Origin: a phage
Direction: 5' to 3' (one strand)
Sequence record: PZ445429.1
Length of the DNA: 64,000 nucleotides
The notes under the pieces are model-generated. The model was not told the DNA's origin. It searched no databases and saw nothing but the letters and a program-made list of their open reading frames with translations. The translations under genes were made by a program, and so were the position numbers. Below are positions 1,870-54,482 of this stretch, piece by piece (the stretch's first letter is position 1; each line of letters starts with the position of its first letter).

Positions 1870-3086
1870 TGGGTTTAAAAAGCTGGATTACTGAAAAGCT
1901 AAATCCGGGTCAACGTATTATAAGAGACATGGAACCAGTTAGTCATCGCACTAACCGTAAGCCATTTACCACTGGACAAGCCTACAGTAAGATTGAGATT
2001 CTCAACCGAACTGCTAACATGGTTATCGATAGTGCGGCGGAGTGTTCTTATACTGTCGGAGATAAATATAATATTGTCACGTACGCTAATGGCGTCAAGG
2101 CAAAGACTCTAGACACTCTCTTAAATGTACGACCTAATCCATTCATGGATATAAGCACATTCCGTAGACTTGTAGTCACTGACCTACTTTTTGAGGGTTG
2201 TGCATACATCTATTGGGATGGCACAGCACTTTACCATGTCCCTGCTGCACTAATGCAAGTAGAGGCAGATGCCAATAAGTTTATCAAAAAATTCATATTT
2301 AATAACCAGATAGACTATCGCGTAGATGAGATTATCTTTATAAAGGATAACAGTTACGTGTGTGGCACAAACTCCCAAATTTCTGGACAATCTCGTGTTG
2401 CTACAGTTATTGACTCTCTTGAGAAGCGTTCTAAAATGCTTAACTTTAAAGAGAAGTTCCTCGATAACGGCACTGTGATTGGTCTTATTCTTGAGACGGA
2501 TGAAATCCTGAACAAGAAATTGCGTGAGCGTAAACAAGAAGAATTACAACTCGATTATAATCCTAGTACGGGTCAGTCTACTGTCCTGATTCTAGATGGT
2601 GGTATGAAAGCAAAACCGTACTCCCAAATATCCTCTTTTAAAGATCTAGACTTCAAGGAAGATATCGAAGGATTTAATAAATCCATCTGTCTTGCCTTTG
2701 GTGTTCCGCAAGTGTTACTTGATGGTGGTAATAATGCTAACATTCGACCAAACATCGAATTGTTCTATTACATGACTATCATTCCTATGCTGAACAAGCT
2801 GACTAGTTCTCTTACTTTCTTCTTTGGCTACAAGGTTACTCCTAATACTAAGGAAGTAGCTGCACTGACGCCAGATAAAGAAGCTGAGGCTAAACATTTA
2901 ACCTCTTTGGTTAATAACGGTATCATGACTGGTAACGAGGCTCGTGAAGAGCTTAACCTTGAACCTTTAGATGATGAGCAGATGAATAAGATTCGTATTC
3001 CTGCTAACGTTGCTGGTTCTGCAACAGGTGTATCTGGTCAAGAAGGTGGTAGACCGCAAGGCACTGCCGATGGGGATAAAGAATGA
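1869..3086 (+). CDS. Portal protein (T5 pb7-like, 405 aa)
   Basis: Size and position after terminase; start overlaps stop of upstream ORF; conserved order portal-decoration-protease-capsid. Confidence 0.8.
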   Translation: MGLKSWITEKLNPGQRIIRDMEPVSHRTNRKPFTTGQAYSKIEILNRTANMVIDSAAECSYTVGDKYNIVTYANGVKAKTLDTLLNVRPNPFMDISTFRRLVVTDLLFEGCAYIYWDGTALYHVPAALMQVEADANKFIKKFIFNNQIDYRVDEIIFIKDNSYVCGTNSQISGQSRVATVIDSLEKRSKMLNFKEKFLDNGTVIGLILETDEILNKKLRERKQEELQLDYNPSTGQSTVLILDGGMKAKPYSQISSFKDLDFKEDIEGFNKSICLAFGVPQVLLDGGNNANIRPNIELFYYMTIIPMLNKLTSSLTFFFGYKVTPNTKEVAALTPDKEAEAKHLTSLVNNGIMTGNEAREELNLEPLDDEQMNKIRIPANVAGSATGVSGQEGGRPQGTADGDKE

Positions 3087-3673
3087 TTGATTATGATGGT
3101 CTAAAGGCCATTTTTGGTGAAAAGCTGCCAGAATCTCATATCTTCTTTGCTACGGTTGCAGCACACAAGTTCGTTCCAAACTATGCTACTCTACGTAAAG
3201 AGTTTGGAATGACCACTGCACATACCAACCGCAAGGTTTGGAATAAGTTCAAAGAAGCATACGAAGTTACTGCTCCGGTTGTTCCAAACTATGCTACTCT
3301 ACGTAAAGAGTTTGGAATGACCACTGCACATACCAACCGCAAGGTTTGGAATAAGTTCAAAGAAGCATACGAAGTTACTGCTCCGGTTGTTCCGGCTATA
3401 GCTTTCACGAAGAATCTGGCTAAAACTCTAGCTGTTGATACTGGTGCAGCAATTAATCTGGGCGTAACAGTTACTGGTGGTACTGCACCATATACTTATG
3501 CTTGGACTAAAGACGGTTCTCCACTTAGTGGTGTTACTGGCCCTAATTTCAACAAAGCTACAGCTGCTGCAGAAGATGCTGGTACTTACAAAGTTGTTGT
3601 AACGGATAGCAAATCTACTTCCATTACTTCTAATGAGTGTGTAACAACTATCAACCCTGCGCTGGGGGCTTAA
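3083..3673 (+). CDS. Capsid decoration protein with C-terminal Ig-like domain (T5 pb10-like), carrying an internal 36-aa tandem duplication
   Basis: C-terminal Ig-like signature (TVTGGTAPYTYAWTKDGSPLSGVTGPNF...AGTYKVVVTD); position between portal and protease; 196 aa, which is 160 aa without the duplicated unit. Confidence 0.7.
   Translation: MIDYDGLKAIFGEKLPESHIFFATVAAHKFVPNYATLRKEFGMTTAHTNRKVWNKFKEAYEVTAPVVPNYATLRKEFGMTTAHTNRKVWNKFKEAYEVTAPVVPAIAFTKNLAKTLAVDTGAAINLGVTVTGGTAPYTYAWTKDGSPLSGVTGPNFNKATAAAEDAGTYKVVVTDSKSTSITSNECVTTINPALGA
3173..3388. repeat. Perfect 2 x 108-bp tandem direct repeat inside the decoration-protein CDS
   Basis: Unit gttccaaactatgctactctacgtaaagag...gctccggtt at 3173-3280 is repeated identically at 3281-3388; in frame (36 codons: VPNYATLRKEFGMTTAHTNRKVWNKFKEAYEVTAPV x2). 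Confidence 0.95.
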
Positions 3674-4326: not shown

Positions 4327-5703
4327 ATGACTATTGATATTAATAAGCTGAAGGAAGAACTTGGTCTGGGTGATCTGGCTAAATCTCTGGAAGGTCTGAC
4401 TGCTGCTCAGAAAGCTGCGGAAGCTAAGCGTCTGCGTGAAGAGCAGGAAGAAAAAGAATTGGCTCGTATGAACGACCTAGTATCTAAAGCTGTTGGTGAA
4501 GACCGTAAGCGTCTGGAAGAAGCTCTGGATCTGGTTAAGAACCTGGATGAGAAGTCTAAGAAGAGCGCAGAACTGTTTGCACAGACTGTAGAAAAGCAAC
4601 AGGAAACCATCGTTGGTCTTCAGGACGAAATCAAGTCTCTGTTGGCAGCTCGTGAAGGTCGTTCCTTCGTTGGTGATAGCGTAGCTAAAGCTCTTTATGG
4701 CACTCAGGATGTTTTCGAAGATGAAGTTGAGAAACTGGTTCTTCTGTCTTATATGATGGAGAAAGACGTATTCGAAACTGAACATGGTAAGGCTCACGTT
4801 AAAGCTGTTAACGGTTCTTCTTCCGTTTCCATGTCTAGCGAAGCATACGAAACTATCTTCTCTACCCGTATTATCCGTGACCTGCAGAAGGAACTGGTAG
4901 TTGGCGCACTGTTCGATGAACTGCCAATGTCCAGCAAAATCCTTACTATGCTCGTTGAACCAGAAGCTGGTCGTGCTACTTGGGTAGATGCTTCCAAATT
5001 CGGTACTGACGAAACTGTTGGTGACGAAGTTAAAGGTCAACTGACTGAAATCAGCTTCAAAACTTACAAGCTGGCTGCTAAATCCTTCATCACTGATGAA
5101 ACTGAAGAAGATGCAATCTTCTCCCTGCTGCCTCTGCTGCGTAAGCGTCTGATCGAAGCACACGCTGTTTCTATCGAAGAAGCTTTCATGTCTGGTAATG
5201 GTACTGGTCAGCCTAAGGGTCTGCTGAAACTGGCTGCTGATGATGGTGCTAAGGTTGTTACCGAAGCTAAAGCTGACGGTTCTGTTCTGGTAACTGCTAA
5301 GACTATCTCCAAGCTGCGTCGTAAACTGGGCCGTCACGGTCTGAAACTGAGCAAACTGGTACTGATCGTATCTATGGATGCTTACTACGATCTGCTGGAA
5401 GATGAAGAATGGCAGGATGTTGCCCAGGTTGGTAACGATGCTGTTAAACTGCAGGGTCAGGTTGGTCGTATTTACGGTCTGCCGGTTGTAGTTTCTGAGT
5501 ACTTCCCAGCTAAAGCTGCTTCCGCTGAATTCGCAGTTATTGTTTATAAAGATAACTTCGTAATGCCGCGTCAGCGTGCCGTTACTGTTGAACGTGAGCG
5601 CCAAGCTGGCAAACAGCGTGACGCATACTACGTTACCCAGCGTGTTAACCTGCAACGTTACTTCGAAAACGGCGTTGTATCTGGTGCTTACGCTGCATCT
5701 TAA
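4327..5703 (+). CDS. Major capsid protein precursor (T5 pb8-like, 458 aa) with N-terminal coiled-coil scaffold (delta) domain
   Basis: 458 aa; N-terminal about 150 aa charged coiled-coil (scaffolding-like), HK97-fold-like remainder; strongly host-optimised codon usage (ctg/cgt/ggt) suggesting very high expression; followed by terminator. Confidence 0.85.
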   Translation: MTIDINKLKEELGLGDLAKSLEGLTAAQKAAEAKRLREEQEEKELARMNDLVSKAVGEDRKRLEEALDLVKNLDEKSKKSAELFAQTVEKQQETIVGLQDEIKSLLAAREGRSFVGDSVAKALYGTQDVFEDEVEKLVLLSYMMEKDVFETEHGKAHVKAVNGSSSVSMSSEAYETIFSTRIIRDLQKELVVGALFDELPMSSKILTMLVEPEAGRATWVDASKFGTDETVGDEVKGQLTEISFKTYKLAAKSFITDETEEDAIFSLLPLLRKRLIEAHAVSIEEAFMSGNGTGQPKGLLKLAADDGAKVVTEAKADGSVLVTAKTISKLRRKLGRHGLKLSKLVLIVSMDAYYDLLEDEEWQDVAQVGNDAVKLQGQVGRIYGLPVVVSEYFPAKAASAEFAVIVYKDNFVMPRQRAVTVERERQAGKQRDAYYVTQRVNLQRYFENGVVSGAYAAS

Positions 5704-5724
5704 TACAGGCTTTTCAGCCGATAA

Positions 5725-5750
5725 GGAGAGCTTCGGCTCTCCTTTTTTAT
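5725..5750 (+). terminator. Rho-independent terminator after major capsid gene
   Basis: GC hairpin ggagagc-ttcg-gctctcc followed by TTTTTT. Confidence 0.75.
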
Positions 5751-5762
5751 TGGGAAAAACAA

Positions 5763-6275
5763 ATGCAAATCATCACTGTTGAAGACTACAGACTATATGC
5801 TAATGCAAAGCGACCTGATATGGAAACTCAGGTTGAGATGATGATTAAAGCTGCCAATACGCTGATTACAAGCCTTCTAGGTATGGATGATGCAGATGCG
5901 GTAGATCAATTAATCACTACAAAACCTAGCCGTAGGAAATATTTCCTGAGTTCTCCCTCAGCCACATCTATTACAAAGATGACTATTAACGAGAATGAAA
6001 TAGACCCGGAACAGTTTAAACTGTATCCTGATGGTGTTATTCTCCTTAAGTTTAATCCTCCTGAAGGATATATGGATGTAGAGTATACTCAAGGTGGTTT
6101 CAATCCAATGCCTGAAGATCTTAAACTGGCAGCATGTCTGTTAGTAGATCACTGGCATAAGCAAGATTATCGTCAAGCCAAGACTATTGGTGGTGAGACA
6201 GTTACGTTTAACAATACTAAGTCTGGTATTCCAGAGCATATTCGTACAATCATCGAAGTCTACAGGAGAGTATAA
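5763..6275 (+). CDS. Head completion / head-tail connector protein (T5 p144-like, 170 aa)
   Basis: Position after capsid gene; size; start ATG embedded in conserved ttattgggaaaaacaaATG element. Confidence 0.55.
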   Translation: MQIITVEDYRLYANAKRPDMETQVEMMIKAANTLITSLLGMDDADAVDQLITTKPSRRKYFLSSPSATSITKMTINENEIDPEQFKLYPDGVILLKFNPPEGYMDVEYTQGGFNPMPEDLKLAACLLVDHWHKQDYRQAKTIGGETVTFNNTKSGIPEHIRTIIEVYRRV

Positions 6276-7042
6276 TGGCTCTTTCTAATCTAGCTAGACA
6301 AATTATTAAAGAGCAGCTAGATACTGCAGGACGATCTGAGAATAATAAGAATACTGTTGTGTATACAGTTGAGACAGGTTTGAAAGATCCTACAAGAGAT
6401 GGTACAGTTGCACAGGTATCTTTCAAATTCTCGAAACCAGTATCACAAGACTTATTAAATGTTAGGACAGCATCTATACTGAAGGCTGTTTCTTATAACT
6501 TAGATCTTTCTGGTGATTTAGGTGCTCTAGAGAATCTAATTCAAGCAACCGCAGGTAAACGTTCCGCCGTTGGTAAAAAACGTTCTACCGGTAGAGTTCA
6601 GGTAAACTTTGGAGATCCTAGAGATACTGAAGATGGCTATTCTGGTGCAGTAACAGGTGCTTCCGGTCGTTTCGTATCGAATAGTAACATGCGTGCTATT
6701 CTTGAGATAGTAGCTAAGGAATACTTAATCAAGGATATGAAAAAAGCAGGGGCACCCTTGAAGTTCAGAACTGGTCGCTTTGCTAACTCCTTAAAGATTA
6801 AAGACGTTATGCTACGTGACGCAGAAACTAGTAAAGGTGCTCCAGAGCTGAATGTGACGTATAACTATATGGTTCGTCCTTACTCTGTGTTCAACCCCGC
6901 AGTTTCTACATATCGAAGACTTTCTCTACGACCTTACCCTGGCGCTCGAAACCCTCAAAAACTTATTGGGGAAGCAATCGCAAAAGCTGCAAGAGACCTG
7001 ATTCACTCTAGATATAAAATCAAGGTTAATCAAGGAACCTAA
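6275..7042 (+). CDS. Tail completion protein (T5 p143-like, 255 aa)
   Basis: Position between head completion and tail terminator genes; translationally coupled to upstream gene (overlapping stop and start). Confidence 0.5.
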   Translation: MALSNLARQIIKEQLDTAGRSENNKNTVVYTVETGLKDPTRDGTVAQVSFKFSKPVSQDLLNVRTASILKAVSYNLDLSGDLGALENLIQATAGKRSAVGKKRSTGRVQVNFGDPRDTEDGYSGAVTGASGRFVSNSNMRAILEIVAKEYLIKDMKKAGAPLKFRTGRFANSLKIKDVMLRDAETSKGAPELNVTYNYMVRPYSVFNPAVSTYRRLSLRPYPGARNPQKLIGEAIAKAARDLIHSRYKIKVNQGT

Positions 7043-7045
7043 TAA

Positions 7046-7531
7046 ATGGATCACAGAACAAGTATTGCACAAGCAGTGGTTGACCGAATCACCACACAAA
7101 TGGATGGTTCACAACCTGACGAGTATTTCAATAACCTTTATGGAAACGTTTCTCGTCAAACTTATAAATTCGAGGAAATCCGAGAATTTCCTTATGTGGC
7201 AGTCCATATCGGAACTGAAACTGGGCAGTATCTTCCCTCAGGCCAACAGTGGATGTTTTTAGAACTTCCAATCCTCGTGTATGACAAAGAGAAAACAGAT
7301 ATTCAAGAGCAACTTGAAAAACTCGTAGCTGACATAAAAACCGTCATTGACACAGGTGGAAATTTAGAATATACTGTTAGTAAACCTAATGGATCGACCT
7401 TCCCATGTAAGGCAACTTATATGAGCATTACCTCAGTAGCTACAGATGAGGGTCTACTGGCCCCATATGGTTTAGCGGAAATAAATGTAACAGTGAGGTA
7501 TCAGCCACCTCGTAGGGCACTTCGCAGATAA
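7046..7531 (+). CDS. Tail terminator protein (T5 p142-like, 161 aa)
   Basis: Size and position immediately upstream of tail tube gene. Confidence 0.55.
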   Translation: MDHRTSIAQAVVDRITTQMDGSQPDEYFNNLYGNVSRQTYKFEEIREFPYVAVHIGTETGQYLPSGQQWMFLELPILVYDKEKTDIQEQLEKLVADIKTVIDTGGNLEYTVSKPNGSTFPCKATYMSITSVATDEGLLAPYGLAEINVTVRYQPPRRALRR

Positions 7532-7557
7532 GTTACAGATTAGGAGAATATAAATAA

Positions 7558-8967
7558 ATGTCTTTACAACTATTACGTAATACTCGAATCTTCGTGTCTA
7601 CGGTTAAGACTGGTCACGATAAGACCAACACGCAAGAGATTCTAGTTCAAGATGATATTTCTTGGGGTCAGGACAGTAACTCAACCGATATTACTGTTAA
7701 CGAAGCTGGTCCGCGTCCAACTCGTGGTTCAAAACGTTTCAACGACTCCCTGAACGCAGCTGAGTGGAGTTTCTCTACTTACATCCTGCCTTACTTAGAT
7801 AAGACTACTAGTAAGCAGATCGTTCCGGACTACATGCTGTGGCATGCTCTTTCTAGTGGTAAGCCTATCAACCTAGATGGCGATACAGGTGCTCACACTA
7901 ACGAAACTAACTTCATGGTTAACTTTAAGGATAACGCATACCACGAGCTGGCAATGCTACATATTTACATCCTTACTGATAAAGCATGGAGCTACATCGA
8001 TTCCTGTCAGATCAACCAGGCTGAAGTAAACGTTGATATCGAAGATATCGGTCGTGTAACTTGGTCAGGTAATGGTAACCAGCTGATCCCTCTGGACGCT
8101 GCTCCATTTGATCCTGATACTGTGGGTATTGATGATGAAACTTACATGACTATCCAGGGTTCTTACATCAAGAACAAACTAACTATCCTCAAAATTAAGG
8201 ATATGGATACTGGTAAGGCATATGACATTCCGATCACTGGTGGTAGCTTTACAATTAACAACAACATCACCTATCTGACTCCAAATATTATGTCCCGTGT
8301 AAACATTCCAATCGGTTCCTTTACTGGTGCATTCGAATTAACTGGTTCTCTGACTGCTTATCTGAACGATAAAGCTCTAGGCTCTATGGATCTGTACAAA
8401 GATCTGATTAAGACCCTGAAAGTAGTTAACCGTTTCGAAATCGCTCTAGTACTTGGCGGTGAATATGATGATGAGCGCCCAGCCGCTGTTCTAGTTGCTA
8501 AGCAAGCCCACGTTAACATCCCAACTATTGAGACTGACGATGTACTTGGTACTTCTGTAGAGTTCAAAGCAATTCCTACTGATCTGGATACTGGTGATGA
8601 AGGTTATCTTGGTTTCTCTAATAAGTACACCAAAACTACTATTGCAAATCTGATTGCAACTGGTGACGGTGGTAAAGCAGCTCCGGTTAAGGTAACAGGT
8701 ATTACTGTTAAATCTGCGGGTGATGCAACTTCCGTCGAGAATAGTGCAACTCTTCAGATGACTGTAGATGTTTTACCTGCCGAAGCTACTAATAAGGAAG
8801 TAACTTGGTCTATTTCCTCTGGTACTGCTGCCACTATTGATGCAACTTCTGGGTTACTAACCGCTGATGCTTCTAAGACTGGTGCAGTTACTGTGAAAGC
8901 TGTAGCTAAAGATGGTTCTGGTGTAGAAGGTACTAAGAGCATTACAGTTACTGCTTCTGGTGGCTAA
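7558..8967 (+). CDS. Major tail tube protein (T5 pb6-like, 469 aa) with C-terminal Ig-like (Big_2) domain
   Basis: Size; C-terminal bacterial Ig-like signature (VTGITVKSAGD...TVDVLPAEATNKEVTWSISSG...VTVKAVAKDGSG); host-optimised codons. Confidence 0.8.
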   Translation: MSLQLLRNTRIFVSTVKTGHDKTNTQEILVQDDISWGQDSNSTDITVNEAGPRPTRGSKRFNDSLNAAEWSFSTYILPYLDKTTSKQIVPDYMLWHALSSGKPINLDGDTGAHTNETNFMVNFKDNAYHELAMLHIYILTDKAWSYIDSCQINQAEVNVDIEDIGRVTWSGNGNQLIPLDAAPFDPDTVGIDDETYMTIQGSYIKNKLTILKIKDMDTGKAYDIPITGGSFTINNNITYLTPNIMSRVNIPIGSFTGAFELTGSLTAYLNDKALGSMDLYKDLIKTLKVVNRFEIALVLGGEYDDERPAAVLVAKQAHVNIPTIETDDVLGTSVEFKAIPTDLDTGDEGYLGFSNKYTKTTIANLIATGDGGKAAPVKVTGITVKSAGDATSVENSATLQMTVDVLPAEATNKEVTWSISSGTAATIDATSGLLTADASKTGAVTVKAVAKDGSGVEGTKSITVTASGG

Positions 8968-8971
8968 TTAA

Positions 8972-9871
8972 ATGTACTACTCTCTAATGAGGGAGTCAAA
9001 AGTTATAGTTGAGTATGATGGCAGGGCTTATCATTTTGATGCCCTGTCAAATTACGATATCAATACGTCCTATGAGGAATTTAAAACTCTTCGTAGGACT
9101 ATCCATCGTAGAACCAACTATGCTGACTCTATTATTAATGCACAAACTCCATCTTCAATATCGCTGGCTATAAATTTTAGTAATACCCTTACTGAAGCTA
9201 ACTTCTTTGAATGGATGGGCTTTGACCGAGAGGGTAACACATTCTTACTACCACTTTATAGTACAAATATTGAGCCAACAATGTTTAATATATACATAGT
9301 TAATAAAGATAATAACTGTGTGTACTTTGAGAATTGCTATGTATCTACTGTAGACTTTTCTCTAGACAAAAGCGTTCCTATCCTAAACGTAGGAATTGAA
9401 TCTGGTAAGTTCTCTGAGGTGTCTACTTTTACTCCTGCTGGTTCTATTGTTCAGGGTGAAGTTATGTCATATAGTCCTCCTAGAGTATCTACCAACAGTA
9501 ATGTTTTACCAGCTCTTTTATCCGCTTCTATGTCATTCCAGCAACAATGTTCTTGGAGAGAAGATAAAAGCGTATTTGACATAAACAAAATATATAATAA
9601 TAAGAGAGCTTATGTTAATGAAATGAATGCTTCGGCAACAATTGCATTTTACTATACTAAGCGATTTGCTGGTGATATGTTTTATAATATTGAACCCGAA
9701 ACTGACATACCATTAACCATCCGAAATGAACATATTTCGATTGACTTTCCTTCAGCACGTATAACAAAACGCCTACAATTCTCGGATATATACAGAGTTG
9801 AATGGGATGTAATCCCTACTGCAGACTCTGATCCGGTAAGAATCGACTTCTTTGGAGAAATAAAGAAATGA
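8972..9871 (+). CDS. Tail protein (T5 p140-like collar/tail-tip protein, 299 aa)
   Basis: Size and position between tail tube and chaperone/tape-measure genes; AT-rich, N/Y-rich. Confidence 0.5.
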   Translation: MYYSLMRESKVIVEYDGRAYHFDALSNYDINTSYEEFKTLRRTIHRRTNYADSIINAQTPSSISLAINFSNTLTEANFFEWMGFDREGNTFLLPLYSTNIEPTMFNIYIVNKDNNCVYFENCYVSTVDFSLDKSVPILNVGIESGKFSEVSTFTPAGSIVQGEVMSYSPPRVSTNSNVLPALLSASMSFQQQCSWREDKSVFDINKIYNNKRAYVNEMNASATIAFYYTKRFAGDMFYNIEPETDIPLTIRNEHISIDFPSARITKRLQFSDIYRVEWDVIPTADSDPVRIDFFGEIKK

Positions 9872-10272
9872 TCAATTTAAAAGATATTACCCTTGAAACT
9901 CGTACTATTGAGCTGGCTTACCCAGGTATGCCTAACTTCAAGCTGCAACTGAACTACATGTCTCGTGCTGCATCTAAGCGTGTTATCTCTTCCGCTAAGC
10001 GTGACGAGTGGGTTAACGGTACTATGATTCAAGTTCAGGACGATGATAAGTTTATTGAAGCTTTCGTTGATACTGCAATTGCTGGCTGGACTGGCTTGAC
10101 GATTGGAGATGTTGAGAAGCTGATGCTTATCGAAACTGAAGCTGATCCTACTACTGAAGTTCCATTTAGTCGCGATAATGCTATCATGCTTATGCAGAAC
10201 TCTGCTGCGTTTGATTCTTGGATCAACCAGACAGTGTTCCACTTAGACACTTTTCGTAGCTCAAAAGCGTAA
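9868..10272 (+). CDS. Putative tail assembly chaperone (134 aa)
   Basis: Acidic small protein upstream of tape-measure gene; the downstream ORF frame is open from 10247, overlapping this stop. Confidence 0.45.
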   Translation: MINLKDITLETRTIELAYPGMPNFKLQLNYMSRAASKRVISSAKRDEWVNGTMIQVQDDDKFIEAFVDTAIAGWTGLTIGDVEKLMLIETEADPTTEVPFSRDNAIMLMQNSAAFDSWINQTVFHLDTFRSSKA

Positions 10273-10333
10273 GCAGTTACTAGATGCTGTTGCCGATTTT
10301 GCTGATAAATGCATTAAATCATCAGCATCTAAA

Positions 10334-10702
10334 ATGACAAAACAACAATATTTAATGCTTTGTGAGTCGCTAGGTATTGAACCTGATCCTAAGGCAATGC
10401 CTGTTGAACTCGAAGATTTTCCACCTATTGTATCTACTAGTATGAATATTTATAACAGTCTTATTGACTGTTTCATACCAGGTGACTTTCCTATTTTTAT
10501 AGGAAAAGACAAAAGTGCACTAGGTGTTTTATTTGATATCTATGGGATTACTGATCCTATAGAGAAAGAGTTTGTTCTACACATCATCAATATATTTGAT
10601 TCGAAAGCTGTAGATGCAGCTCGTAAGAGAGCCGAGAAGCATGGTAAACAAAATGGTCGCACTCCGAACATTAAACCGCATGCTAGATCTCGAGCTCAGT
10701 AA
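10334..10702 (+). CDS. Putative tail assembly chaperone, second part, or hypothetical protein (122 aa)
   Basis: Position immediately upstream of tape-measure gene; reading frame open upstream to 10247. Confidence 0.4.
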   Translation: MTKQQYLMLCESLGIEPDPKAMPVELEDFPPIVSTSMNIYNSLIDCFIPGDFPIFIGKDKSALGVLFDIYGITDPIEKEFVLHIINIFDSKAVDAARKRAEKHGKQNGRTPNIKPHARSRAQ

Positions 10703-10737
10703 AAGTTTCCTCCAATGGGCGTTCCACGATGAGGCTT

Positions 10738-10770
10738 GGCTCTGGGTGATTTGCCCAGAGCCTTTTTTAT
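10738..10770 (+). terminator. Rho-independent terminator before tape-measure gene
   Basis: Hairpin ggctctggg-tgatttg-cccagagcc followed by TTTTTT. Confidence 0.7.
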
Positions 10771-10782
10771 TGGGAAAAATAA

Positions 10783-13700
10783 ATGACTGATAAGCTAATA
10801 CGAGAACTACTTATAGATGTAAAGCAGAAAGGGGCAACCCGTACTGCAAAATCTATTGAGAACGTTTCCGATGCGTTAGAAAATGCTGCTGCCGCTTCCG
10901 AACTGACTAATGAGCAGTTAGGAAAAATGCCCAAAACTCTTTACTCCATTGAGAGGGCGGCGGATAGAGCAGCTAAAAGTCTAACTAAAATGCAGGCTAG
11001 TAGAGGCATGACTGGTATCACCAAATCTATGGATAGTATTGGTGCTAAGTTAGATGACCTTGCTATTGCTATGATCGAGGTATCCGATAAGCTAGAGTCT
11101 GGATTTACACACGTTGGGAAATCTGTTAAGGCGATGGGTAACGATGTAGCTGCTGCAACTGAAAAAGTTCAAGATAGATTATATGATACTAACCGAGCAC
11201 TAGGTAATACTGCTAGAGGCTTTAATGATACAACTACCGCTGCAGGACGTGCTAGTCGTGCAATTGGTAATACTTCTGGTTCAGCACGTGGTGCAACTCG
11301 TGACTTTGCAGCTATGGCTAAAGTGGGTGGTGGTTTACCTCTTATGTACGCTGCTATCGCATCTAACGTGTTCGTTCTACAATCTGCATTCGAACAACTT
11401 AAGATGGGTGACCAGTTAAACCGTCTTGAGAAGTTTGGTACTATTGTTGGTACTCAAACAGGTACTCCGGTACAAACTCTAGCTAGATCTCTACAAGAGG
11501 CTGCTGGTTATGCAATCTCCTTCGAAGAAGCAATGAGACAAGCATCCTCTGCTTCCGCATATGGATTTGATGCTGAACAACTTAATAAATTTGGTCTAGT
11601 AGCTCGTCGTGCTGCTGCTGTTCTTGGTGTTGATATGACTGATGCACTTAACCGTGTAATCAAGGGTGTATCCAAACAAGAAATCGAACTTCTGGACGAA
11701 CTTGGTGTTACTATTCGTCTTAATGATGCTTACGCTGACTACGTTAAACAGTTAAATGCTGCTAACACAGGTATTACGTATAACGTCAATAGTCTTTCCA
11801 CTTTCCAAAAGCAACAAGCATATGCTAACGCAGTAATCGCTGAATCTACTAAACGTTTCGGCTACTTGGATGACGTACTTCGTGCAACTCCATGGGAACA
11901 GTTTGCTGCTAATGCTGATGCTGCCCTGAGAAAGGTTCAACAGGCTGCTGCTAAGTATTTAGGGCCGGTAATTGATTCTATTAACGCAGTATTCTATACT
12001 TCTCAAGCATCTATCTCAGCTTCTGCTGCTAGAGCACAGGAAGAAACTAACCGTCAGATTGACCCAACTAACGTTGGTGCTGTAGCTTTAAGTCTTTCCG
12101 CTTCTGAGGAAGGATATAATAAAGCTCTTGATATGTATAAAGAATCTCTAGAAAAGCGTAATAAGTTAAAAGCTGATCTAGACAAGCGTATGGAACAGGC
12201 TGACTTCTTTACCGCAGGTGCAATTCGTTCTGTGGCTCAAGGTGTTCCGGTAAGTGCTGCGGCTCTTGGTGCTTCGGAGGAAAACAAGAAGTTCGTAGCT
12301 GAAACTGCGGCTATGGCACTCCAAGTAGAACGTTTGGATAAGGAAGTTACTGATTCAACCGATAACTTAGGTGCATGGAAATCTGCATATCAAGCTGCTG
12401 GTGCTGCGGCTGCTAAGGCTAATCCAGAATTTCAGAAGCAGATTAATCTGCAGAAGGATATGAATGACCCTGATGCGGTTTATGACTTTAACTCCGCAAC
12501 TCTGAAAGGACTGACAGAACAGCAGAAAGCATATGATCAGGCTAAGAAAACTGCTAGTGATTTAGCTAACGATATCCAGAACATTGCTCAGAATACTAAT
12601 ACTGCGGCTAAAACTAGTGCATCCCTATCAGATACGATTAAGACTATTGAGTCTCTTTCTGCTGGTACTGGTAAAAATGCTGATGAGTATGTTAAGAGCC
12701 TGAACTTAGGATATAATACCCTTAGTGAGATGAAGACTGCTTCACAAGCTCTTGCTGGTTATGTAAAACTAACCGGTAATGAAACTAAGAATCAGTTAGA
12801 AGTTCAGCAGAAGATTGCCGAAGTGTATAACCAGACTAAGGACAAAGAGAAAGCACAGGAAGCTGGTAGACGTCTGGAAATCCAACAGTTAGAAGAACAG
12901 GAAGCAGCTCTTAAGCGTGTCCTAGAAACTAACAAGGGTAACAAAGCAATCGAAGGTGAGATAGCTAAGATTCAGTTAGAACGTATCAAGATCACTAACC
13001 AGGGTATGGAAGCTCAGAAGAAGGTTAAGGATTATACCGATAAGATTCTTGGTGTTAATCGTGAAATTGCTCTCCTGAATAACCGTACTATGACAGATAC
13101 TCAATATCGTTTAGCTCAGTTGAACCTTGAACTGACTGTCGAGAAAGAAAAGTATGAATGGTACTCCAAACAGGTTGATAAGCATAAGGAAGCTGAACAA
13201 TCAAGACGTGCTCAGGCACAAATTGAACGTGAAATATGGAAGTTCCGTCAGGATCAGCAGATGGAAATGGCTTCTGGACGTGAAAGAGCTCTTAATATTT
13301 CACAGATTAGCAGAAACGTTACGGGGGAATCTCAGAGACTAACCGAACAGCAAGCTCTGTACCAAAGTTTACTGGAAATTACAAAAGGAAATGCACAAGC
13401 TCAGGAAGAGTATAAGCGTAAAATCCAAGAAACTTCGGCAGCTCTAGCACAGCTTAAGATGCAACGTGATGCTCAGATGCAGCAGCAAGTCACTTCTTCT
13501 GTTGGTGGTGTTTACACTCCAACAACTGGACTGGAAGGAGATGATAAAGCAAATATGGATATGCAGAATAGAATGGCATCCTATGACCAGGCTATTTCTA
13601 AGCTGTCTGAACTGAACTCCGAAGCAACTGCTGTAGCACAAAGCATGGGTAACTTAACTAATGCTATGATCCAGTTCTCCCAAGGATCTCTGGATACTAC

Positions 13701-14463
13701 CTCTCTAGTAGCGGCTGGTATGCAAACTGTATCTTCAATGATTCAGTATAGTGTTGGTCAGCAGGTAAGTGCTATTGATGCGGCTATTGCAGCAGAACAG
13801 AAGCGGGATGGTAAATCTGAGCAATCTAAAGCTAAGATCAAGAAGTTAGAGGCTGAAAAGCTCAAGATCCAGCAAGATGCGGCTAAGAAGCAAATCATTA
13901 TCCAGACGGCAGTAGCAGTGATGCAGGCAGCAACAGCTGTTCCGTATCCATTCTCTATTCCTCTGATGGTTGCGGCTGGTTTAGCAGGTGCTATGGCTCT
14001 TGCTCAAGCATCCTCTGCATCTGGTATGTCTTCTATTGGGGACTCTGGTGCTGAGACAGCTGGTTACTTAACTCTTGGAGAGCGCCAGAAGAACGTAGAC
14101 GTTTCTATGTCGGCTAACGCAGGAGAACTTTCTTATATTCGAGGTGATCAAGGGATTGGTAATGCTAACTCTTTCGTACCTCGTGCAGAAGGTGGTAATA
14201 TGTATCCTGGAGTTAGTTACCAGATGGGTGAGCATGGTACCGAAGTAATCACTCCTATGGTTCCGATGAAGGCTACTCCTACTGATGAACTCAAAGGATC
14301 TTCAAAAGGTACATCGGGTAGACCTATTGTGCTGAACATCAGTACAATGGATGCGGCTAGCTTCCGAGACTTTGCTTCGAGCAACAGTGCTGCTTTCAGG
14401 GATGCCGTGGAACAGGCTCTTAATGAGAATGGAACCACCCTGAAATCACTTGGTAATTCTTAA
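10783..14463 (+). CDS. Tape measure protein (T5 pb2-like, 1226 aa)
   Basis: Very long Ala/Gln-rich coiled-coil protein; hydrophobic segment near C-terminus (IPLMVAAGLAGAMALAQA); position upstream of distal tail protein. Confidence 0.85.
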   Translation: MTDKLIRELLIDVKQKGATRTAKSIENVSDALENAAAASELTNEQLGKMPKTLYSIERAADRAAKSLTKMQASRGMTGITKSMDSIGAKLDDLAIAMIEVSDKLESGFTHVGKSVKAMGNDVAAATEKVQDRLYDTNRALGNTARGFNDTTTAAGRASRAIGNTSGSARGATRDFAAMAKVGGGLPLMYAAIASNVFVLQSAFEQLKMGDQLNRLEKFGTIVGTQTGTPVQTLARSLQEAAGYAISFEEAMRQASSASAYGFDAEQLNKFGLVARRAAAVLGVDMTDALNRVIKGVSKQEIELLDELGVTIRLNDAYADYVKQLNAANTGITYNVNSLSTFQKQQAYANAVIAESTKRFGYLDDVLRATPWEQFAANADAALRKVQQAAAKYLGPVIDSINAVFYTSQASISASAARAQEETNRQIDPTNVGAVALSLSASEEGYNKALDMYKESLEKRNKLKADLDKRMEQADFFTAGAIRSVAQGVPVSAAALGASEENKKFVAETAAMALQVERLDKEVTDSTDNLGAWKSAYQAAGAAAAKANPEFQKQINLQKDMNDPDAVYDFNSATLKGLTEQQKAYDQAKKTASDLANDIQNIAQNTNTAAKTSASLSDTIKTIESLSAGTGKNADEYVKSLNLGYNTLSEMKTASQALAGYVKLTGNETKNQLEVQQKIAEVYNQTKDKEKAQEAGRRLEIQQLEEQEAALKRVLETNKGNKAIEGEIAKIQLERIKITNQGMEAQKKVKDYTDKILGVNREIALLNNRTMTDTQYRLAQLNLELTVEKEKYEWYSKQVDKHKEAEQSRRAQAQIEREIWKFRQDQQMEMASGRERALNISQISRNVTGESQRLTEQQALYQSLLEITKGNAQAQEEYKRKIQETSAALAQLKMQRDAQMQQQVTSSVGGVYTPTTGLEGDDKANMDMQNRMASYDQAISKLSELNSEATAVAQSMGNLTNAMIQFSQGSLDTTSLVAAGMQTVSSMIQYSVGQQVSAIDAAIAAEQKRDGKSEQSKAKIKKLEAEKLKIQQDAAKKQIIIQTAVAVMQAATAVPYPFSIPLMVAAGLAGAMALAQASSASGMSSIGDSGAETAGYLTLGERQKNVDVSMSANAGELSYIRGDQGIGNANSFVPRAEGGNMYPGVSYQMGEHGTEVITPMVPMKATPTDELKGSSKGTSGRPIVLNISTMDAASFRDFASSNSAAFRDAVEQALNENGTTLKSLGNS

Positions 14464-14467
14464 TACT

Positions 14468-14497
14468 GGAGGAGGACTTTATGTCCTCCTTTTCTTT
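14468..14497 (+). terminator. Rho-independent terminator after tape-measure gene
   Basis: Hairpin ggaggac-tttat-gtcctcc followed by T-rich run. Confidence 0.65.
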
Positions 14498-14571
14498 ATG
14501 GAAAAATAAAAATTTCTTGATAAAATTTTCCAATCCTATTATAATATTGTTATTAAGAGGAGAAATTAACT

Positions 14572-15186
14572 ATGAGACTACCAGACCCATACACGAACCC
14601 AGAGCTATCAGGGTTAGGTTTTGAAAGCGTTAACTTAGTAGACAATGACCCTATGATTCGTGATGAATTACCTAATGGTAAAGTTAGGGAGGTTAAGGTG
14701 TCTGCTCAATATTGGGGTATTAATATCTCTTATCCAGAATTATTCCCAGATGAATTTGCTAAATTAGACTCATTCATTCTAGATTATAAAAGAACAGGTA
14801 GCTATATTGATGTGTTATTACCACAATATGAAGCTTTTCGAGTTCGTGGTGATACTAGTGCTGTAAATATTCCTGCTGGACAAAAAGGTTCAACAGTTAT
14901 TATGGACACTAAAGGTACACTTCGTGGACTGCCTAAACCAGGCGATTTATTTAAATTGTCCAACCATCCAAAAGTGTACAAAATCACTTCTATCAACATA
15001 GCAGGAAATACTTGGAATATAAGTGTTTATCCTGATCTATTCATTACTACTACGGGTAGTGAGAAACCGGTATTTAATGGTATTCTGTTTAGAACTAAAT
15101 TAATGAACGGAGACAGTTTTGGCTCTACGTTAAATAGTAATGGTACATATACTGGTATTTCACTTTCCTTGAGGGAAAGTCTATGA
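14572..15186 (+). CDS. Distal tail protein Dit (T5 pb9-like, 204 aa)
   Basis: Size identical to T5 pb9; position between tape measure and baseplate hub. Confidence 0.75.
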   Translation: MRLPDPYTNPELSGLGFESVNLVDNDPMIRDELPNGKVREVKVSAQYWGINISYPELFPDEFAKLDSFILDYKRTGSYIDVLLPQYEAFRVRGDTSAVNIPAGQKGSTVIMDTKGTLRGLPKPGDLFKLSNHPKVYKITSINIAGNTWNISVYPDLFITTTGSEKPVFNGILFRTKLMNGDSFGSTLNSNGTYTGISLSLRESL

Positions 15187-18032: not shown

Positions 18033-20090
18033 ATGATTTCGAATAATGCACCAGCCAAGATGGTCTTAAATAGTATTATGACTGGATATACTATGGCGTA
18101 TATCCAGCATTCTATCTATACCGACTACGATGTTATCGGTAGATCATTCTGGCTTAAACTTGGCGAAGAAGTGGATAGAAGAGATTTCACTGGAATCGAC
18201 ACTTTCTTTGTTATGATCAATAACTTAACTCCCTCAACTACCTATCAGGTTCAGGGAGCTTTTTATGACTCAATTATTGACTCAGAACTTTTAAATGCAA
18301 AAATTGGTATTAACCTCTCTAATGAAACTAACTTTAAAACAAAAGAGAAGCCAATAATTGTTGCAGCAAGATCTGAGTCAGAACCTGTGGATGTTGGGGT
18401 GGGCGCACCAATAGTTGTTGTGGAAACAACTGGTGAAGCAAGCTACTGTACTATTGAGTTAAAAAGTACAGCCACTGAAGACAGTCCATGGACTAAATAT
18501 TATATTGGGGCTTTAGGTTCTACTATTAAATTTGGTGGAGTTCCTATCGGAGATTATAAGATCAGAATATCTGGTCAAGTAACTATGCCTGATGGTGTTA
18601 CAGTTGATTCTTCTGGGTACTATGAGTTCCCTAATATTCTAACTGTAGCTTATAATTTTGTTCCTCCTACTGCACCTATCGATATTGTTTTTAAAGCTGC
18701 ACGAATTGCTGATGGTAAAGAACGATATGATGTTAGAATTGAGTGGGACTGGGAACGTGGTGCTGGTGCTAACGTTCGTGAATTCTTGGTTACTTACATA
18801 AACTCCGAGGAATATGCTAAAACCGGATGGGCTAAAGCTCAAAAGATAAACGTGGGTGCTGCCAGAGCTGCAACAATTATATCATTCCCATGGAAAGTTG
18901 AACATACTTTTAAGGTATCATCAATTGCCTGGGGACCAAGTAAACAAGATATAACAGAGTCAGCTCCTGTAACGTTTATTCTGAATGAAGATACTCCTCT
19001 AGATAATAGTTTTGTCAATGAGACGGGTATTGATGTTAACTATGCCTTTATTAAAGGCAGCATGAAAGATGGGGAAATCTGGAGACAAACATTCCTAATT
19101 GATGCAGCTACTGGTGCTATTAACATTGGTCTGCTAGATGAAGAAGGTAAAGCACCTATTTCTTTTGACCCTATAAACCGTGTTGTTAACGTTGATGGTA
19201 AAGTAATTACTAGAGATATTAATGCTGCGAACTTTATCATGACTAACTTGTCTGGTAAAGATAACCCAGCAATTTACACTCAAGGTAAATCCTGGGGGGA
19301 TAATAACTCTGGTATTTGGATGGGTATGGATAATACCTCTGCCAAAGCTAAGTTAGACATTGGTAATGCTACACAATGGATACGTTATGATGGTACTACT
19401 CTGCGTATTTCTAGTGGTGTAGTGATTGGAACACCAAATGGTGACGTAGATATTGGAACTGGTTTACAAGGTAAGCAAACAGTATTTGTTTATAAGTTAG
19501 CAACATCTTTACCGGCCAAACCGCTAGAACAAGATTATCCACCTCCTGGTTGGTCAAAAACTCCACCTAACCGTACAGATATGACACAAAATATCTATGC
19601 GACTACAGGTACACTTGACCCAGTTACTAACAAACTTCTTGAAGGTACTAGCTGGTCTGATGTAGTTCAATGGAGTGGTACTGAAGGTACTATAGGACAT
19701 GATGGACAGCGTGGTCCTGGGATGTACTCCATGGGTATTCCTGGATTAGGCGGTTGGGATGATGGACAAGCTAACGCATTCTTTCAAAATAACTTTGGAA
19801 AACCTCCGGTTAAATACGATGTTCTAACACAATTTAACAGTAATGCTCCACAAACAGCATTTACCCGTCAGTGGAACGGAGCTGGATGGATTAACCCTGC
19901 AATGGTTCTTCATGGCAATATGATTGTTAATGGAACTGTTACTGCGGATAAGATTGTGGCAGGAAATGCCTTCTTATCACAAATCGGTGTTAATATAATC
20001 TACGATAGAAATGCTGCGTTATCAGGGAACCCTGAAGCATACTACAAGATGAAGATAGACCTAAATAGTGGGTATATCCATATAAGGTAA
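18033..20090 (+). CDS. Central straight fibre protein (T5 pb4-like, 685 aa)
   Basis: Size and position after baseplate hub; Gly/Thr-rich beta-like repeats. Confidence 0.7.
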
Positions 20091-41998: not shown

Positions 41999-42020
41999 TT
42001 TATAAAGAAAAAGCCAAGAA

Positions 42021-42329
42021 CTAGACATTCTTGGCTTTGAGTTCTTCAGCTCGTTTCTGTACTTCATGCAAGACCTCTGATTCACTGAGGATTTGCGTAA
42101 AAGCGTAGAATAGCTGTGATGTAGTTTCTAGGGTATAAGGAAAAGAGAAGCCGGATTTCGTTGGAAACCACTCTCCAGTAATATCTTGGAGCCAGTAACG
42201 AATTCCCATGTATAGATTCCCACGAAATTCAGATACGGTTAGTCTTACTTGTTCCCCCTCCTTCTCCCAAAGCATGATGGACTGGTCGTCAACGTGTCCT
42301 TCATAGTTTTGATTTACCTGATCGCTCAT
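42021..42329 (-). CDS. Hypothetical protein (102 aa)
   Basis: ORF with flanking hairpin; no recognisable motifs. Confidence 0.45.
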   Translation of the reverse strand: MSDQVNQNYEGHVDDQSIMLWEKEGEQVRLTVSEFRGNLYMGIRYWLQDITGEWFPTKSGFSFPYTLETTSQLFYAFTQILSESEVLHEVQKRAEELKAKNV

Positions 42330-51097: not shown

Positions 51098-51130
51098 AAA
51101 TAAAAGCCAGGTCGACTAGCAACCTGGCTG
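51098..51130 (-). terminator. Rho-independent terminator downstream of nrdD
   Basis: Hairpin agccaggt...acctggct with A-rich run on + strand (U-run on - strand). Confidence 0.6.
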
Positions 51131-54359: not shown

Positions 54360-54482
54360 GACAGACGAGCCTGGGTATGAAAATATCCGGGCTCTTTTTA
54401 TCTGTAAAATTGTACTTGCTAAATGACTGAGAATAAAGTAAACTATTTCCTAAATCCTGATAACTACAAAAAGGAAAGCCAA

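What the first reader, a model, noticed from the sequence alone, without database searches (positions are those of the whole stretch)
5741..5765. Conserved post-terminator element (ccttttttattgggaaaaaYaaATG) recurring at late gene starts
The same 20 to 22-nt element, with the start codon embedded, follows the terminator hairpins at 5741-5765 and 10761-10785 (tape-measure gene). A variant (ccttttctttatggaaaaataaaaattt) follows the terminator at 14488-14515. Neither ATG has a canonical Shine-Dalgarno sequence. The element may be a late promoter or activator site, a translation-initiation enhancer, or a processing site.
Basis: seen in the sequence. Interest (0 to 1): 0.5.

Follow-up and report, generated by a model that had tools for sequence, protein, structure and literature searches.

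The report
Terminator tail plus weak ribosome-binding site
The repeated 25-base element in this T5-like phage is the T-rich tail of a transcription terminator followed directly by a weak ribosome-binding site and the start codon of the next gene, a compact junction also seen in T7 and many other phages, so it is ordinary and not a new late promoter.

Summary
The window is a T5-like phage (Epseptimavirus, about 99% identical to Salmonella phage Seabear). Two copies, identical at 24 of 25 bases, follow terminator hairpins at 5741-5765 and 10761-10785 and contain the ATGs of the head-completion and tape-measure genes. These are the only two copies in the genome.

The element splits into known signals: terminator U-tract (TTTTTTATT), a weak Shine-Dalgarno-like GGGA, an A-rich spacer, and ATG. 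Homologous junctions across Demerecviridae keep the same layout. In distant relatives the G block is a canonical SD (GGAG, GAGG, GGAGG, AAGGAG). G-block-to-ATG spacing varies from 5 to 12 nt. In T5, a homing-endonuclease insertion splits the element exactly between ATT and GGG.

There is no -35/-10 pair at either site. The T5 reference record annotates terminators at both. The third "variant" (14488-14515) is something else: a terminator tail plus the A/T-rich upstream region of the known σ70 late promoter P-G25.

T7's Tφ/gene 11 junction has the same architecture. The same 17-mer precedes tail, tape-measure and portal-like genes in unrelated phages.

Most likely function: partial termination plus weak translation initiation, keeping low-copy proteins scarce after abundant ones. 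Low novelty.

The parts
5723..5744 (+). Terminator 1 hairpin after the major capsid gene (AAGGAGAGC-TTCG-GCTCTCCTT; core 5725-5742)
   Evidence: T5 annotates a rho-independent terminator at the homologous place. A hairpin at this position is kept in all Demerecviridae examined, with a different stem sequence in Vibrio-phage relatives.
5743..5751 (+). U-tract of terminator 1 (TTTTTTATT); this is the 5' half of the reported element
   Evidence: TTTTT(T)ATT or a similar T-run follows the hairpin in most relatives.
5752..5755 (+). Weak Shine-Dalgarno-like GGGA for the head-completion/adaptor gene
   Evidence: Duplex with the 16S 3' end is -4.2 kcal/mol, 7 nt from the ATG. The position is occupied by GGAG, GAGG, GGAGG or AAGGAG in distant relatives. 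An RBS is annotated 9-13 nt upstream of the ATG in Seabear.
5756..5765 (+). A-rich spacer (AAAACAA) and ATG (5763-5765) of the head-completion/head-tail adaptor gene 5763..6275
   Evidence: Spacer length and sequence vary among relatives.
10738..10762 (+). Terminator 2 hairpin after the tail assembly chaperone gene
   Evidence: RNAalifold on 12 diverse relatives recovers only this helix, and 7 of its 9 pairs show compensatory double changes. It is annotated as a terminator in T5.
10763..10771 (+). U-tract of terminator 2 (TTTTTTATT)
   Evidence: In T5 an HNH endonuclease gene is inserted directly after ...TTTTTTATT, which separates it from the GGG block.
10772..10785 (+). Weak SD-like GGGA, A-rich spacer and ATG (10783-10785) of the tape-measure gene 10783..14463
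   Evidence: Canonical SDs sit at this position in My1, phi3, Ceto, L237, L219 and L222. The spacer is 3-4 nt longer in Tequintavirus genomes. In T5, pb2 keeps GGAAAAcattagATG after the endonuclease gene.
14468..14499 (+). Terminator 3 (hairpin 14471-14489 plus T-tract TTTTCTTTAT) after the tape-measure gene
   Evidence: Annotated as a terminator in T5.
14500..14545 (+). A/T-rich UP-element-like stretch (to 14516), then σ70 promoter TTGATA (14517-14522) - 17 nt - TATAAT (14540-14545). This is the homologue of T5 late promoter P-G25.
   Evidence: The promoter scan gives 11 of 12 consensus matches. The T5 record annotates 'promoter P-G 25' on the near-identical sequence. P-G25 was shown to be a late promoter by primer extension (PMC7472727). 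A -35/-10 pair is kept at this place in Klebsiella, Serratia, Pectobacterium and Vibrio relatives.
10703..10737 (+). Conserved non-coding block between the chaperone stop codon and terminator 2 (TTTCCTCCAATGGGCGTTCCACGATGAGGCTT). It is listed as context and is not shown to be part of the element's function.
   Evidence: It is conserved from E. coli to Vibrio phages. One-nucleotide indels among relatives show it is not coding.

Best explanation
Each copy is a compact terminator-to-RBS junction inside the late structural gene block of a T5-like phage. Its first 9-11 bases (CC TTTTTTATT) are the last stem bases and the U-tract of a Rho-independent terminator. Terminator 1 ends the major-capsid transcript and terminator 2 ends the tail-tube/chaperone transcript. 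The remaining bases (GGGA, an A-rich spacer, ATG) are the ribosome-binding site and start codon of the next gene.

No promoter lies between terminator and ATG. The head-completion and tape-measure genes can therefore only be translated from transcripts that read through the terminator. There they start from a weak SD in an unstructured A/U-rich context. The combined effect is to step expression down from very abundant proteins to low-copy ones.

The two copies look alike because the same host signals (RNAP termination, 30S binding) are packed into about 20 nt at both places. They are not a common binding site for a phage factor.

Shown here: hairpins, U-tracts, positional homology of the G block to canonical SDs, absence of promoter hexamers, and separability of the two halves.
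Inferred: partial read-through, weak translation, the stoichiometric purpose, and any enhancer role of the U-tract or A-rich spacer (for example through ribosomal protein S1).
From my own knowledge, not tested here: the copy numbers (capsid protein in the hundreds, adaptor about 12, tape-measure about 3).
For: (1) Anatomy. A G+C-rich hairpin plus TTTTTTATT lies immediately upstream at both sites.
(2) Terminator 2 is a real structure: 7 of 9 pairs carry compensatory changes in 12 diverse relatives.
(3) In junctions collected through homology of the flanking proteins, the layout hairpin / T-tract / G block / 5-12 nt / ATG persists. It holds down to 47% capsid identity with no change, and at 33-34% a hairpin and an SD still precede the ATG (L243-L245). 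The G block reads GGAG, GAGG, GGAGG, AAGGAG or GGGGG in Pectobacterium, Vibrio and metagenomic relatives.
(4) GGGA pairs with the 16S 3' end at -4.2 kcal/mol, 7 nt from the ATG. That is the weak end of the range for this phage's structural-block genes. Most of the other comparably weak sites belong to genes that abut or overlap the preceding gene (with the coordinates).
(5) G-block-to-ATG spacing is not fixed. It is 8 nt here, 11-12 nt in Tequintavirus at site 2 and 5-7 nt elsewhere. GGG to GG and GGG to ATTAGG variants also occur.
(6) In T5 an HNH endonuclease gene is inserted exactly between ...TTTTTTATT and GGG. The T-tract stays with the terminator, and pb2 keeps its own GGAAAA-N7-ATG.
(7) There is no σ70-like -35/-10 at either site. 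T5 late genes use σ70 promoters (PMC7472727). The T5 record annotates terminators at both sites and promoters elsewhere, namely P-J5 and P-G25. The window has the P-J5 counterpart at 7347-7375.
(8) Only two copies exist genome-wide.
(9) T7 has the same architecture: capsid gene 10, Tφ, GGGGTTTTTTGCTGAAAGGAGGAACTATATG, gene 11.
(10) TTTTTTATTGGGWAAAA occurs in 59 distinct contexts that lack the T5-type terminator stems in a truncated IMG/VR scan. 35 of these have a hairpin directly upstream. 16 of those 35 are followed within 10 nt by the ATG of an ORF of at least 70 aa. Examples include minor tail, P2 gpD-like tail, portal-like/head-tail, two tape-measure, tail assembly and tail fibre genes.
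(11) Two more junctions of the same design occur in the window: about 42368-42327 on the minus strand with TTTGGGA, and 62985-63019 with GGAG.
Against: No transcript or ribosome data exist for this phage, so termination efficiency, read-through and translation strength are all inferred.

The whole intergenic region, including bases with no assigned role, is nearly invariant within Markadamsvirinae. Conservation inside that subfamily therefore does not discriminate between hypotheses.

The G-block-to-ATG distance of 11-12 nt at site 2 in Tequintavirus is long for an SD. ATTGGGAAAAA is kept while the insertion lies 3' of it, which leaves room for an additional role of that block.

The 24/25 identity of two sites in one genome is more than the shared constraints strictly require.

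It shows usage, not enrichment over other RBS variants.
Confidence: 0.85

Rival explanations
1. The element is a late promoter or the binding site of a phage-encoded late activator. It would restart transcription directly after each terminator.
For: It sits in intergenic DNA ahead of late genes and is strongly conserved. The look-alike at 14488-14515 really does lie just upstream of a late promoter.
Against: There are no -35/-10 hexamers at sites 1 and 2, and the ATG follows only 20 nt after the hairpin. T5 late promoters are recognisable σ70 promoters (PMC7472727). T5 annotates terminators only at these sites. In distant relatives the block turns into a canonical SD rather than staying a fixed operator. 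A homing endonuclease insertion splits the element in T5 without loss of the tape-measure gene. The same 17-mer is used in unrelated phages.
Confidence: 0.03
2. The GGGAAAAAYAA block is a sequence-specific translational operator. It would be bound by a phage or host protein (RegA-like or CsrA-like) or by a small RNA, and would co-regulate the adaptor and tape-measure genes. That would explain why the two sites stay nearly identical.
For: 24 of 25 positions are identical at two sites in one genome. ATTGGGAAAAA is retained in Tequintavirus even when 3-4 nt are inserted before the ATG. A conserved CU-rich block (TTTCCTCCAAT...) upstream of terminator 2 is partly complementary to ATTGGGAAA. In the window its duplex energy is -10.2 and -9.7 kcal/mol against about -5.7 for shuffles.
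Against: Complementarity to that block is no better than shuffles in Klebsiella (site 1), L229, Ceto, phi3 and L237. RNAalifold finds no conserved pairing beyond the terminator. The predicted SD accessibility is not distinctive compared with the capsid and Dit genes. The block degenerates freely to GGGT, GGA or ATTAGGA and to canonical SDs in relatives. No candidate regulator was identified.
Confidence: 0.08
3. The element is half of an RNA processing site of the RNase III or RNase E type. The flanks of each terminator hairpin would pair into a longer helix, as at T7 intercistronic RNase III sites. Cleavage would then set the stability of the upstream mRNA or activate the downstream RBS.
For: Single-sequence folds extend both terminator stems with a lower helix. 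At site 1 CCGAUA pairs with UAUUGG and UUUUC with GAAAA. At site 2 UUCC.CGAUGAGG pairs with UUUUAUUG.GGAA. The z-scores are -2.3 and -2.6. An A/G-rich stretch (GCCGAUAA-like) precedes hairpin 1 in many enterobacterial relatives.
Against: The consensus fold of 12 relatives keeps only the terminator stem. The upstream purine run is adequately explained as the usual A-tract partner of a terminator U-tract. A small alternative hairpin, GGC(N5-6)GCC, competes for the same bases and is the conserved feature at site 1. Vibrio-phage relatives lack the upstream partner altogether yet keep the junction. There is no Rfam match.
Confidence: 0.05
4. The two copies are a short duplicated or gene-converted cassette with no function beyond that of each part. 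They would be alike by descent, not by constraint.
For: The identity is exact over 25 nt and stops abruptly on both sides.
Against: The hairpins directly adjacent are unrelated in sequence. Both junctions already exist, in diverged form, in every subfamily examined, so each is ancient at its own locus. 25 nt is very short for homologous exchange. This rival concerns origin only and is compatible with the best explanation.
Confidence: 0.1

Closest known systems
Phage T7 Tφ terminator / gene 11 ribosome-binding-site junction (after capsid gene 10)
   Same: The gene order and spacing match. The major capsid gene is followed by a stable hairpin, a T-run, and then an SD and the ATG of the next structural gene about 20 nt after the T-run starts: GGGGTTTTTTGCTGAAAGGAGGAACTATATG. 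From established knowledge of T7, the downstream genes depend on read-through.
   Different: T7 late transcription uses T7 RNA polymerase, and gene 11 has a strong canonical SD (AAGGAGG). Here the host σ70 RNAP transcribes and the SD is degenerate (GGGA). The design is also used twice with nearly identical sequence.
Rho-independent terminators annotated in phage T5 (NC_005859) after D20-21 (pb8) and after T5.142
   Same: They are direct homologues. T5 site 1 has the identical element with T at the Y position. T5 site 2 has the same hairpin and TTTTTTATT.
   Different: In T5 the second junction is interrupted by the HNH endonuclease gene T5.141. The tape-measure gene then overlaps that gene's stop codon (ATGA).
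T5 late promoter P-G25 with A/T-rich upstream (UP-element-like) region
   Same: The third 'variant' site is its homologue: TTGATA-17-TATAAT preceded by GGAAAAATAAAAATTT.
   Different: It shares only the T-tract plus A-rich character with sites 1 and 2. It has no embedded start codon, and its gene has a strong SD 50 nt further on.
A/U-rich translational enhancers and ribosomal protein S1 binding upstream of weak SDs in E. coli mRNAs (general knowledge, not tested here)
   Same: A U-run lies 5' of a weak SD and an A-rich spacer 3' of it. This is the context in which such enhancers are described.
   Different: Nothing here shows enhancement. The U-run is primarily the terminator tail.

Membership tests
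Rho-independent (intrinsic) terminator | G+C-rich stem-loop immediately followed by a U-rich tract | tested here: met
   Site 1 has 7-9 bp with a UUCG loop followed by TTTTTTATT. Site 2 has 10-11 bp followed by TTTTTTATT. Site 3 has 7-10 bp followed by TTTTCTTTAT.
Rho-independent (intrinsic) terminator | Structure rather than sequence conserved among relatives (compensatory changes) | tested here: met
   At site 2, 7 of 9 pairs show double compensatory changes in 12 relatives. At site 1 the stem is invariant in enterobacterial relatives but is replaced by different G+C-rich hairpins in Vibrio and metagenomic relatives.
Rho-independent (intrinsic) terminator | Transcript 3' ends form in the U-tract in vivo or in vitro | not testable with these tools
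   No RNA data are available. T5 annotates these as 'putative' terminators.
Shine-Dalgarno ribosome-binding site | Complementarity to the 3' end of 16S rRNA | tested here: inconclusive
   GGGA gives only -4.2 kcal/mol (4 pairs, one of them G-U), rank 23-24 of 27 genes. This is weak but not absent.
Shine-Dalgarno ribosome-binding site | Located about 5-13 nt upstream of the start codon | tested here: met
   The distance is 7 nt from GGGA to ATG in the window. It ranges from 5 to 12 nt (last G to ATG) across relatives.
Shine-Dalgarno ribosome-binding site | Positionally homologous to recognised SDs in related genomes | tested here: met
   GGAG, GAGG, GGAGG or AAGGAG occupy the same position at both junctions in My1, phi3, Ceto, L216, L219, L222, L231 and L237.
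σ70 promoter | -35 and -10 hexamers separated by 16-18 bp | tested here: not met
   Nothing is found at 5741-5800 or 10761-10820 (and inspection). The feature is met only at site 3, with TTGATA-17-TATAAT at 14517-14545.
UP element (site 3 only) | A/T-rich sequence at about -59 to -38 of a σ70 promoter | tested here: met
   14493-14514 (TTTATGGAAAAATAAAAATTT) falls at -59 to -38 relative to the -35 hexamer at 14517. Binding of the RNAP α subunit C-terminal domain is not testable here.
RNase III-type processing hairpin (T7-like) | Conserved extended double-stranded region of about 20 bp enclosing an internal loop | tested here: not met
   It is predicted only in single-sequence folds. It is absent from the consensus fold and inconsistent across lineages.
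Known RNA families (Rfam 15) | Match at the gathering threshold | tested here: not met
   There are 0 matches in the whole window.

The most novel reading that the evidence does not exclude
The near-identity of the two junctions might not be just shared host signals. The strongly conserved CU-rich, anti-SD-like block in the 3' UTR of the chaperone gene (10703-10737, TTTCCTCCAATGGGCGTTCCACGATGAGG) ends at terminator 2. It could act in cis, or as a 3'-UTR-derived small RNA in trans, on the AUUGGGAAA sequence of both junctions. That would co-regulate translation of the head-completion and tape-measure genes. My tests do not support this across lineages, but they cannot exclude it for the Markadamsvirinae. 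The block itself remains unexplained.
Probability: 0.05. Interest if true: 0.55.

Novelty: already known. Interest (0 to 1): 0.12.

Why it matters
It matters mainly for annotation. The element should be recorded as terminator plus RBS, not as a late-promoter motif. The two genes downstream should be regarded as read-through-dependent and weakly translated.

The comparative result shows that placing an intrinsic terminator about 10 nt ahead of the next gene's SD inside a structural-gene block is an old and widespread way for phages to set protein stoichiometry. It also gives a clean natural example for designers of synthetic operons, namely a terminator/RBS junction of about 45 nt. Nothing here changes current understanding of T5 late transcription.

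Tried and rejected
(1) Late promoter. The promoter scan and inspection found no hexamer pair at sites 1 and 2. The literature says T5 late promoters are σ70-type.

(2) Additional copies. Relaxed searches (up to 4 mismatches, and sub-motifs) over the window and the rest of a ~99% identical genome found none. The 13-mer core with 2 mismatches is no more frequent than in shuffles (13 found, 11.4 expected).

(3) Lower helix or SD sequestration. RNAfold suggested that the flanks of each terminator pair with AUUGGGAA. RNAalifold kept only the terminator. SD unpaired probabilities were no different from those of the capsid and Dit genes. Duplex energies between the conserved upstream block and the junctions beat shuffles in only some lineages.

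(4) The conserved block upstream of terminator 2 as a coding extension. This is rejected because 1-nt indels among relatives break every frame.

(5) Rfam. No family matched in the window.

(6) Literature search for T5 transcript maps or RNA-seq. Nothing usable was found.

(7) Aeromonas phage Akh-2 was fetched but not used, because its annotation is fragmented.

(8) Counting motif occurrences in IMG/VR.

Full report
**Identity of the window.** Bases 5000-11500 match 545 phage records. The best are Epseptimavirus members of the Demerecviridae (T5-like phages) at 98.9% identity, for example Salmonella phage Seabear and E. coli phage Ace. The window starts at the large-terminase ATG. It then runs through portal, decoration protein, protease, major capsid protein (4327..5703), head-completion/adaptor (5763..6275), neck and tail-tube genes, and two chaperone ORFs (9868..10272 and 10334..10702). 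After those come the tape-measure gene (10783..14463), the distal tail protein (14572..15186) and onward.

**Checking the observation.** The strings are exactly as reported. The two full copies differ at one position, C5760 versus T10780. A 25-mer search with up to 3 mismatches returns only these two sites, against 0 in shuffles. A 17-mer core search adds nothing credible. A 13-mer core with 2 mismatches is at chance level, 13 found against 11.4 expected. I also searched the rest of a ~99% identical genome: Seabear 1-45000 and 85199-112472, which together with the window cover the whole genome. No further copy turned up. So the element is real and non-random, but it occurs twice, not generally "at late gene starts".

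**Anatomy.** Both copies directly follow strong hairpins. One is AAGGAGAGC-UUCG-GCUCUCCUU (5723-5744). The other is GGCUCUGGGUG-AUU-UGCCCAGAGCC (10738-10762). The first 11 bases of the element are therefore the stem end plus a classic U-tract (TTTTTTATT). What remains is GGGA, seven A-rich bases and ATG.
- GGGA can form four pairs with the 16S 3' end (-4.2 kcal/mol), 7 nt from the ATG.
- Among 27 annotated genes of this region that is rank 23-24.
- Most of the other genes in that weak range abut or overlap the preceding gene (with the coordinates).
- Seabear's annotators already marked an RBS 9-13 nt upstream of both ATGs.

**Comparative evidence.** I collected homologous junctions without reference to the motif, using the flanking proteins.
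- *Within Markadamsvirinae.* The whole intergenic region is almost invariant. The junction nevertheless tolerates GGG to GG, GGG to ATTAGG, a 13-T run, and at site 2 a 3-4 nt insertion between the A-run and the ATG.
- *Across the family.* The layout hairpin / T-tract / G block / short spacer / ATG is kept at both loci. It holds unchanged down to 47% capsid identity. At 33-34% identity (L243-L245) a hairpin and an SD still precede the ATG.
- *The G block becomes a canonical SD in distant relatives.* Examples are TTTTTATTTGGAGTAAATATG and TTTTTTATTTGAGGTAATAAAATG (My1), TTTTTTATTGGAGGTAATAAAATG and TTTTTATTAGGAGAAAACTCATAATG (phi 3), TTTTTTGTAAGGAGTTTTTATG (L231), and TTTTTATTGGAGGTAGCCAATG (L237).
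- *Hairpin 2 is a genuine structure.* 7 of 9 pairs show compensatory double changes in 12 relatives, and RNAalifold finds no other conserved helix.
- *T5 itself.* An HNH endonuclease gene (T5.141) is inserted exactly after ...CCTTTTTTATT. The T-tract stays with the terminator, and pb2 starts from caGGAAAAcattagATG, overlapping the endonuclease stop codon. The two halves of the "element" are therefore separable units.

**Promoter question.** No -35/-10 pair is present at sites 1 or 2. According to PMC7472727, all T5 gene classes are transcribed by σ70 host RNAP, and strong σ70 promoters precede late genes. P-J5 and P-G25 were validated as late promoters by primer extension. The T5 reference record places putative rho-independent terminators at both junctions. 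It places P-J5 inside the tail-terminator gene and P-G25 right after the pb2 terminator. The window has the corresponding hexamers at 7347-7375 (TTGACA-17-TATACT) and 14517-14545 (TTGATA-17-TATAAT).

That stretch occupies roughly -59 to -38 of P-G25, the position of a UP element. The T5 sequence there is nearly identical, and a -35/-10 pair is kept at this place in other genera. The gene it serves starts 50 nt further on with AGAGGAG.

**Generality.** T7 shows the same design after its capsid gene: Tφ hairpin, then GGGGTTTTTTGCTGAAAGGAGGAACTATATG, then gene 11.
- After collapsing near-identical contexts, 59 lack the T5-type terminator stems.
- 35 of these have a hairpin directly upstream.
- 16 of those 35 are followed within 10 nt by the ATG of an ORF of at least 70 aa.
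- Examples include minor tail proteins, a P2 gpD-like tail protein, a portal-like/head-tail protein, two tape-measure proteins, a tail assembly protein and a tail fibre.

The scan was conditioned on the motif, so it shows usage rather than enrichment. It does argue that the string works through host machinery and not through a T5-specific factor. The window also holds two further junctions of this type. One is on the minus strand (about 42368-42327), with TTTTTGTGTATTTGGGATATGTAAATG. The other is at 62985-63019, with CCCCTCTTATTTGGAGAAACTATG.

**Mechanism proposed.** Transcripts of the very abundant capsid protein, and of the tail tube and chaperones, mostly end at terminators 1 and 2. Polymerases that read through carry the adaptor/neck genes or the tape-measure gene. 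There is no room for a promoter in the 20 nt between hairpin and ATG, so these genes depend on read-through. They then initiate from a weak SD in an unstructured A/U-rich context. That suits proteins needed in few copies (copy numbers are from general knowledge, not tested here). The hairpins, U-tracts, SD homology and absence of a promoter are shown. The termination efficiency, the weak translation and the stoichiometric rationale are inferred.

**Alternatives examined.** Single-sequence folds suggested that the flanks of each terminator pair with AUUGGGAA. That raised the possibility of SD sequestration, RNase III-type processing, or an anti-SD-like regulator. This did not hold up.
- The consensus fold keeps only the terminator.
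- Predicted SD accessibility is no different from that of the capsid and Dit genes.
- Duplex energies between the conserved upstream block and the junctions exceed shuffles in some lineages (window, L219, L222) but not in others (Klebsiella site 1, L229, Ceto, phi 3, L237).
- The purine run before hairpin 1 (GCCGAUAA-like) is adequately explained as the A-tract partner of the U-tract. A small hairpin GGC(N5-6)GCC competes for the same bases.
- Rfam has no match in the window.

**What remains unexplained.** A block of about 30 nt lies between the chaperone stop codon and terminator 2 (10703-10737). Its consensus is roughly UCCUCMA-N-GGGCRUUCCACGAG. It is conserved from E. coli to Vibrio phages and is non-coding, because indels break every frame. 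I could not assign it a structure or function.

**Verdict.** The thing observed is a composite of known signals that are already annotated in T5. The promoter reading is wrong, the translation-initiation reading is essentially right for the 3' half, and novelty is low.

Noticed in passing
window 10703-10737 (+): A strongly conserved non-coding block lies between the tail-chaperone stop codon and terminator 2: TTTCCTCCAATGGGCGTTCCACGATGAGGCTT. It contains an anti-SD-like CCTCC. It is kept from Escherichia and Salmonella phages to Vibrio phages, while one-nucleotide indels rule out coding. No conserved secondary structure and no Rfam match were found, and its function is unknown.
   Followed up: partly
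window 9868-10702 (+), overlap 10247-10272: The second chaperone ORF (10334..10702) has no SD at all (+1.2 kcal/mol). Its reading frame is open upstream to 10247 and overlaps the end of the first chaperone ORF in the +1 (or -2) frame. That is the arrangement expected for a programmed-frameshift tail assembly chaperone pair. No slippery site was identified.
   Followed up: partly
L002 (T5, NC_005859) 17778-18530, minus strand: In T5 an HNH homing endonuclease gene (T5.141) is inserted exactly between the terminator-2 T-tract and the tape-measure RBS. Its stop codon overlaps the pb2 start codon (ATGA). Vibrio phages carry a different ORF of about 250 aa at the same place.
   Followed up: partly
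window ~42368-42327 (-) and 62985-63019 (+): Two more terminator-to-RBS junctions of the same design were found. One is GCCCCTATATGGGGC TTTTTGTGTATTTGGGATATGTAAATG, again with GGGA. The other is GGGGGCGAAAGCCCC TCTTATTTGGAGAAACTATG, with a canonical GGAG.
   Followed up: no
window 42013-42035 (-), 51106-51128 (-), 54367-54394 (+), 56823-56840 (+), 60326-60341 (+): In the early-gene part of the window, terminator hairpins are followed within about 10-25 nt by an A/T-rich stretch and a recurring (T)ACTTGCT or TTTGCT motif that looks like a -35 box. These appear to be terminator-promoter modules resembling the known strong T5 early promoters. This rests on inspection only, plus my recollection of T5 early promoters.
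   Followed up: no
window 5708-5719 (+): A small hairpin, GGCU-UUUC-AGCC, sits just upstream of terminator 1. The GGC...GCC stem is kept with variable loops in Klebsiella, Serratia, Pectobacterium and other relatives. In some of them the capsid stop codon lies in its loop.
   Followed up: no
window 3083-3673 (+): The head decoration gene is 108 nt longer than in Seabear (591 versus 483 nt). This is the only length difference noticed across the first ~18 kb of the structural block compared.
   Followed up: no
window 14471-14489 (+): The left arm of terminator 3 is GGAGGA and its loop contains an ATG that opens an ORF of about 46 codons running across promoter P-G25. This is probably chance, since purine-rich terminator arms resemble SDs.
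   Followed up: no
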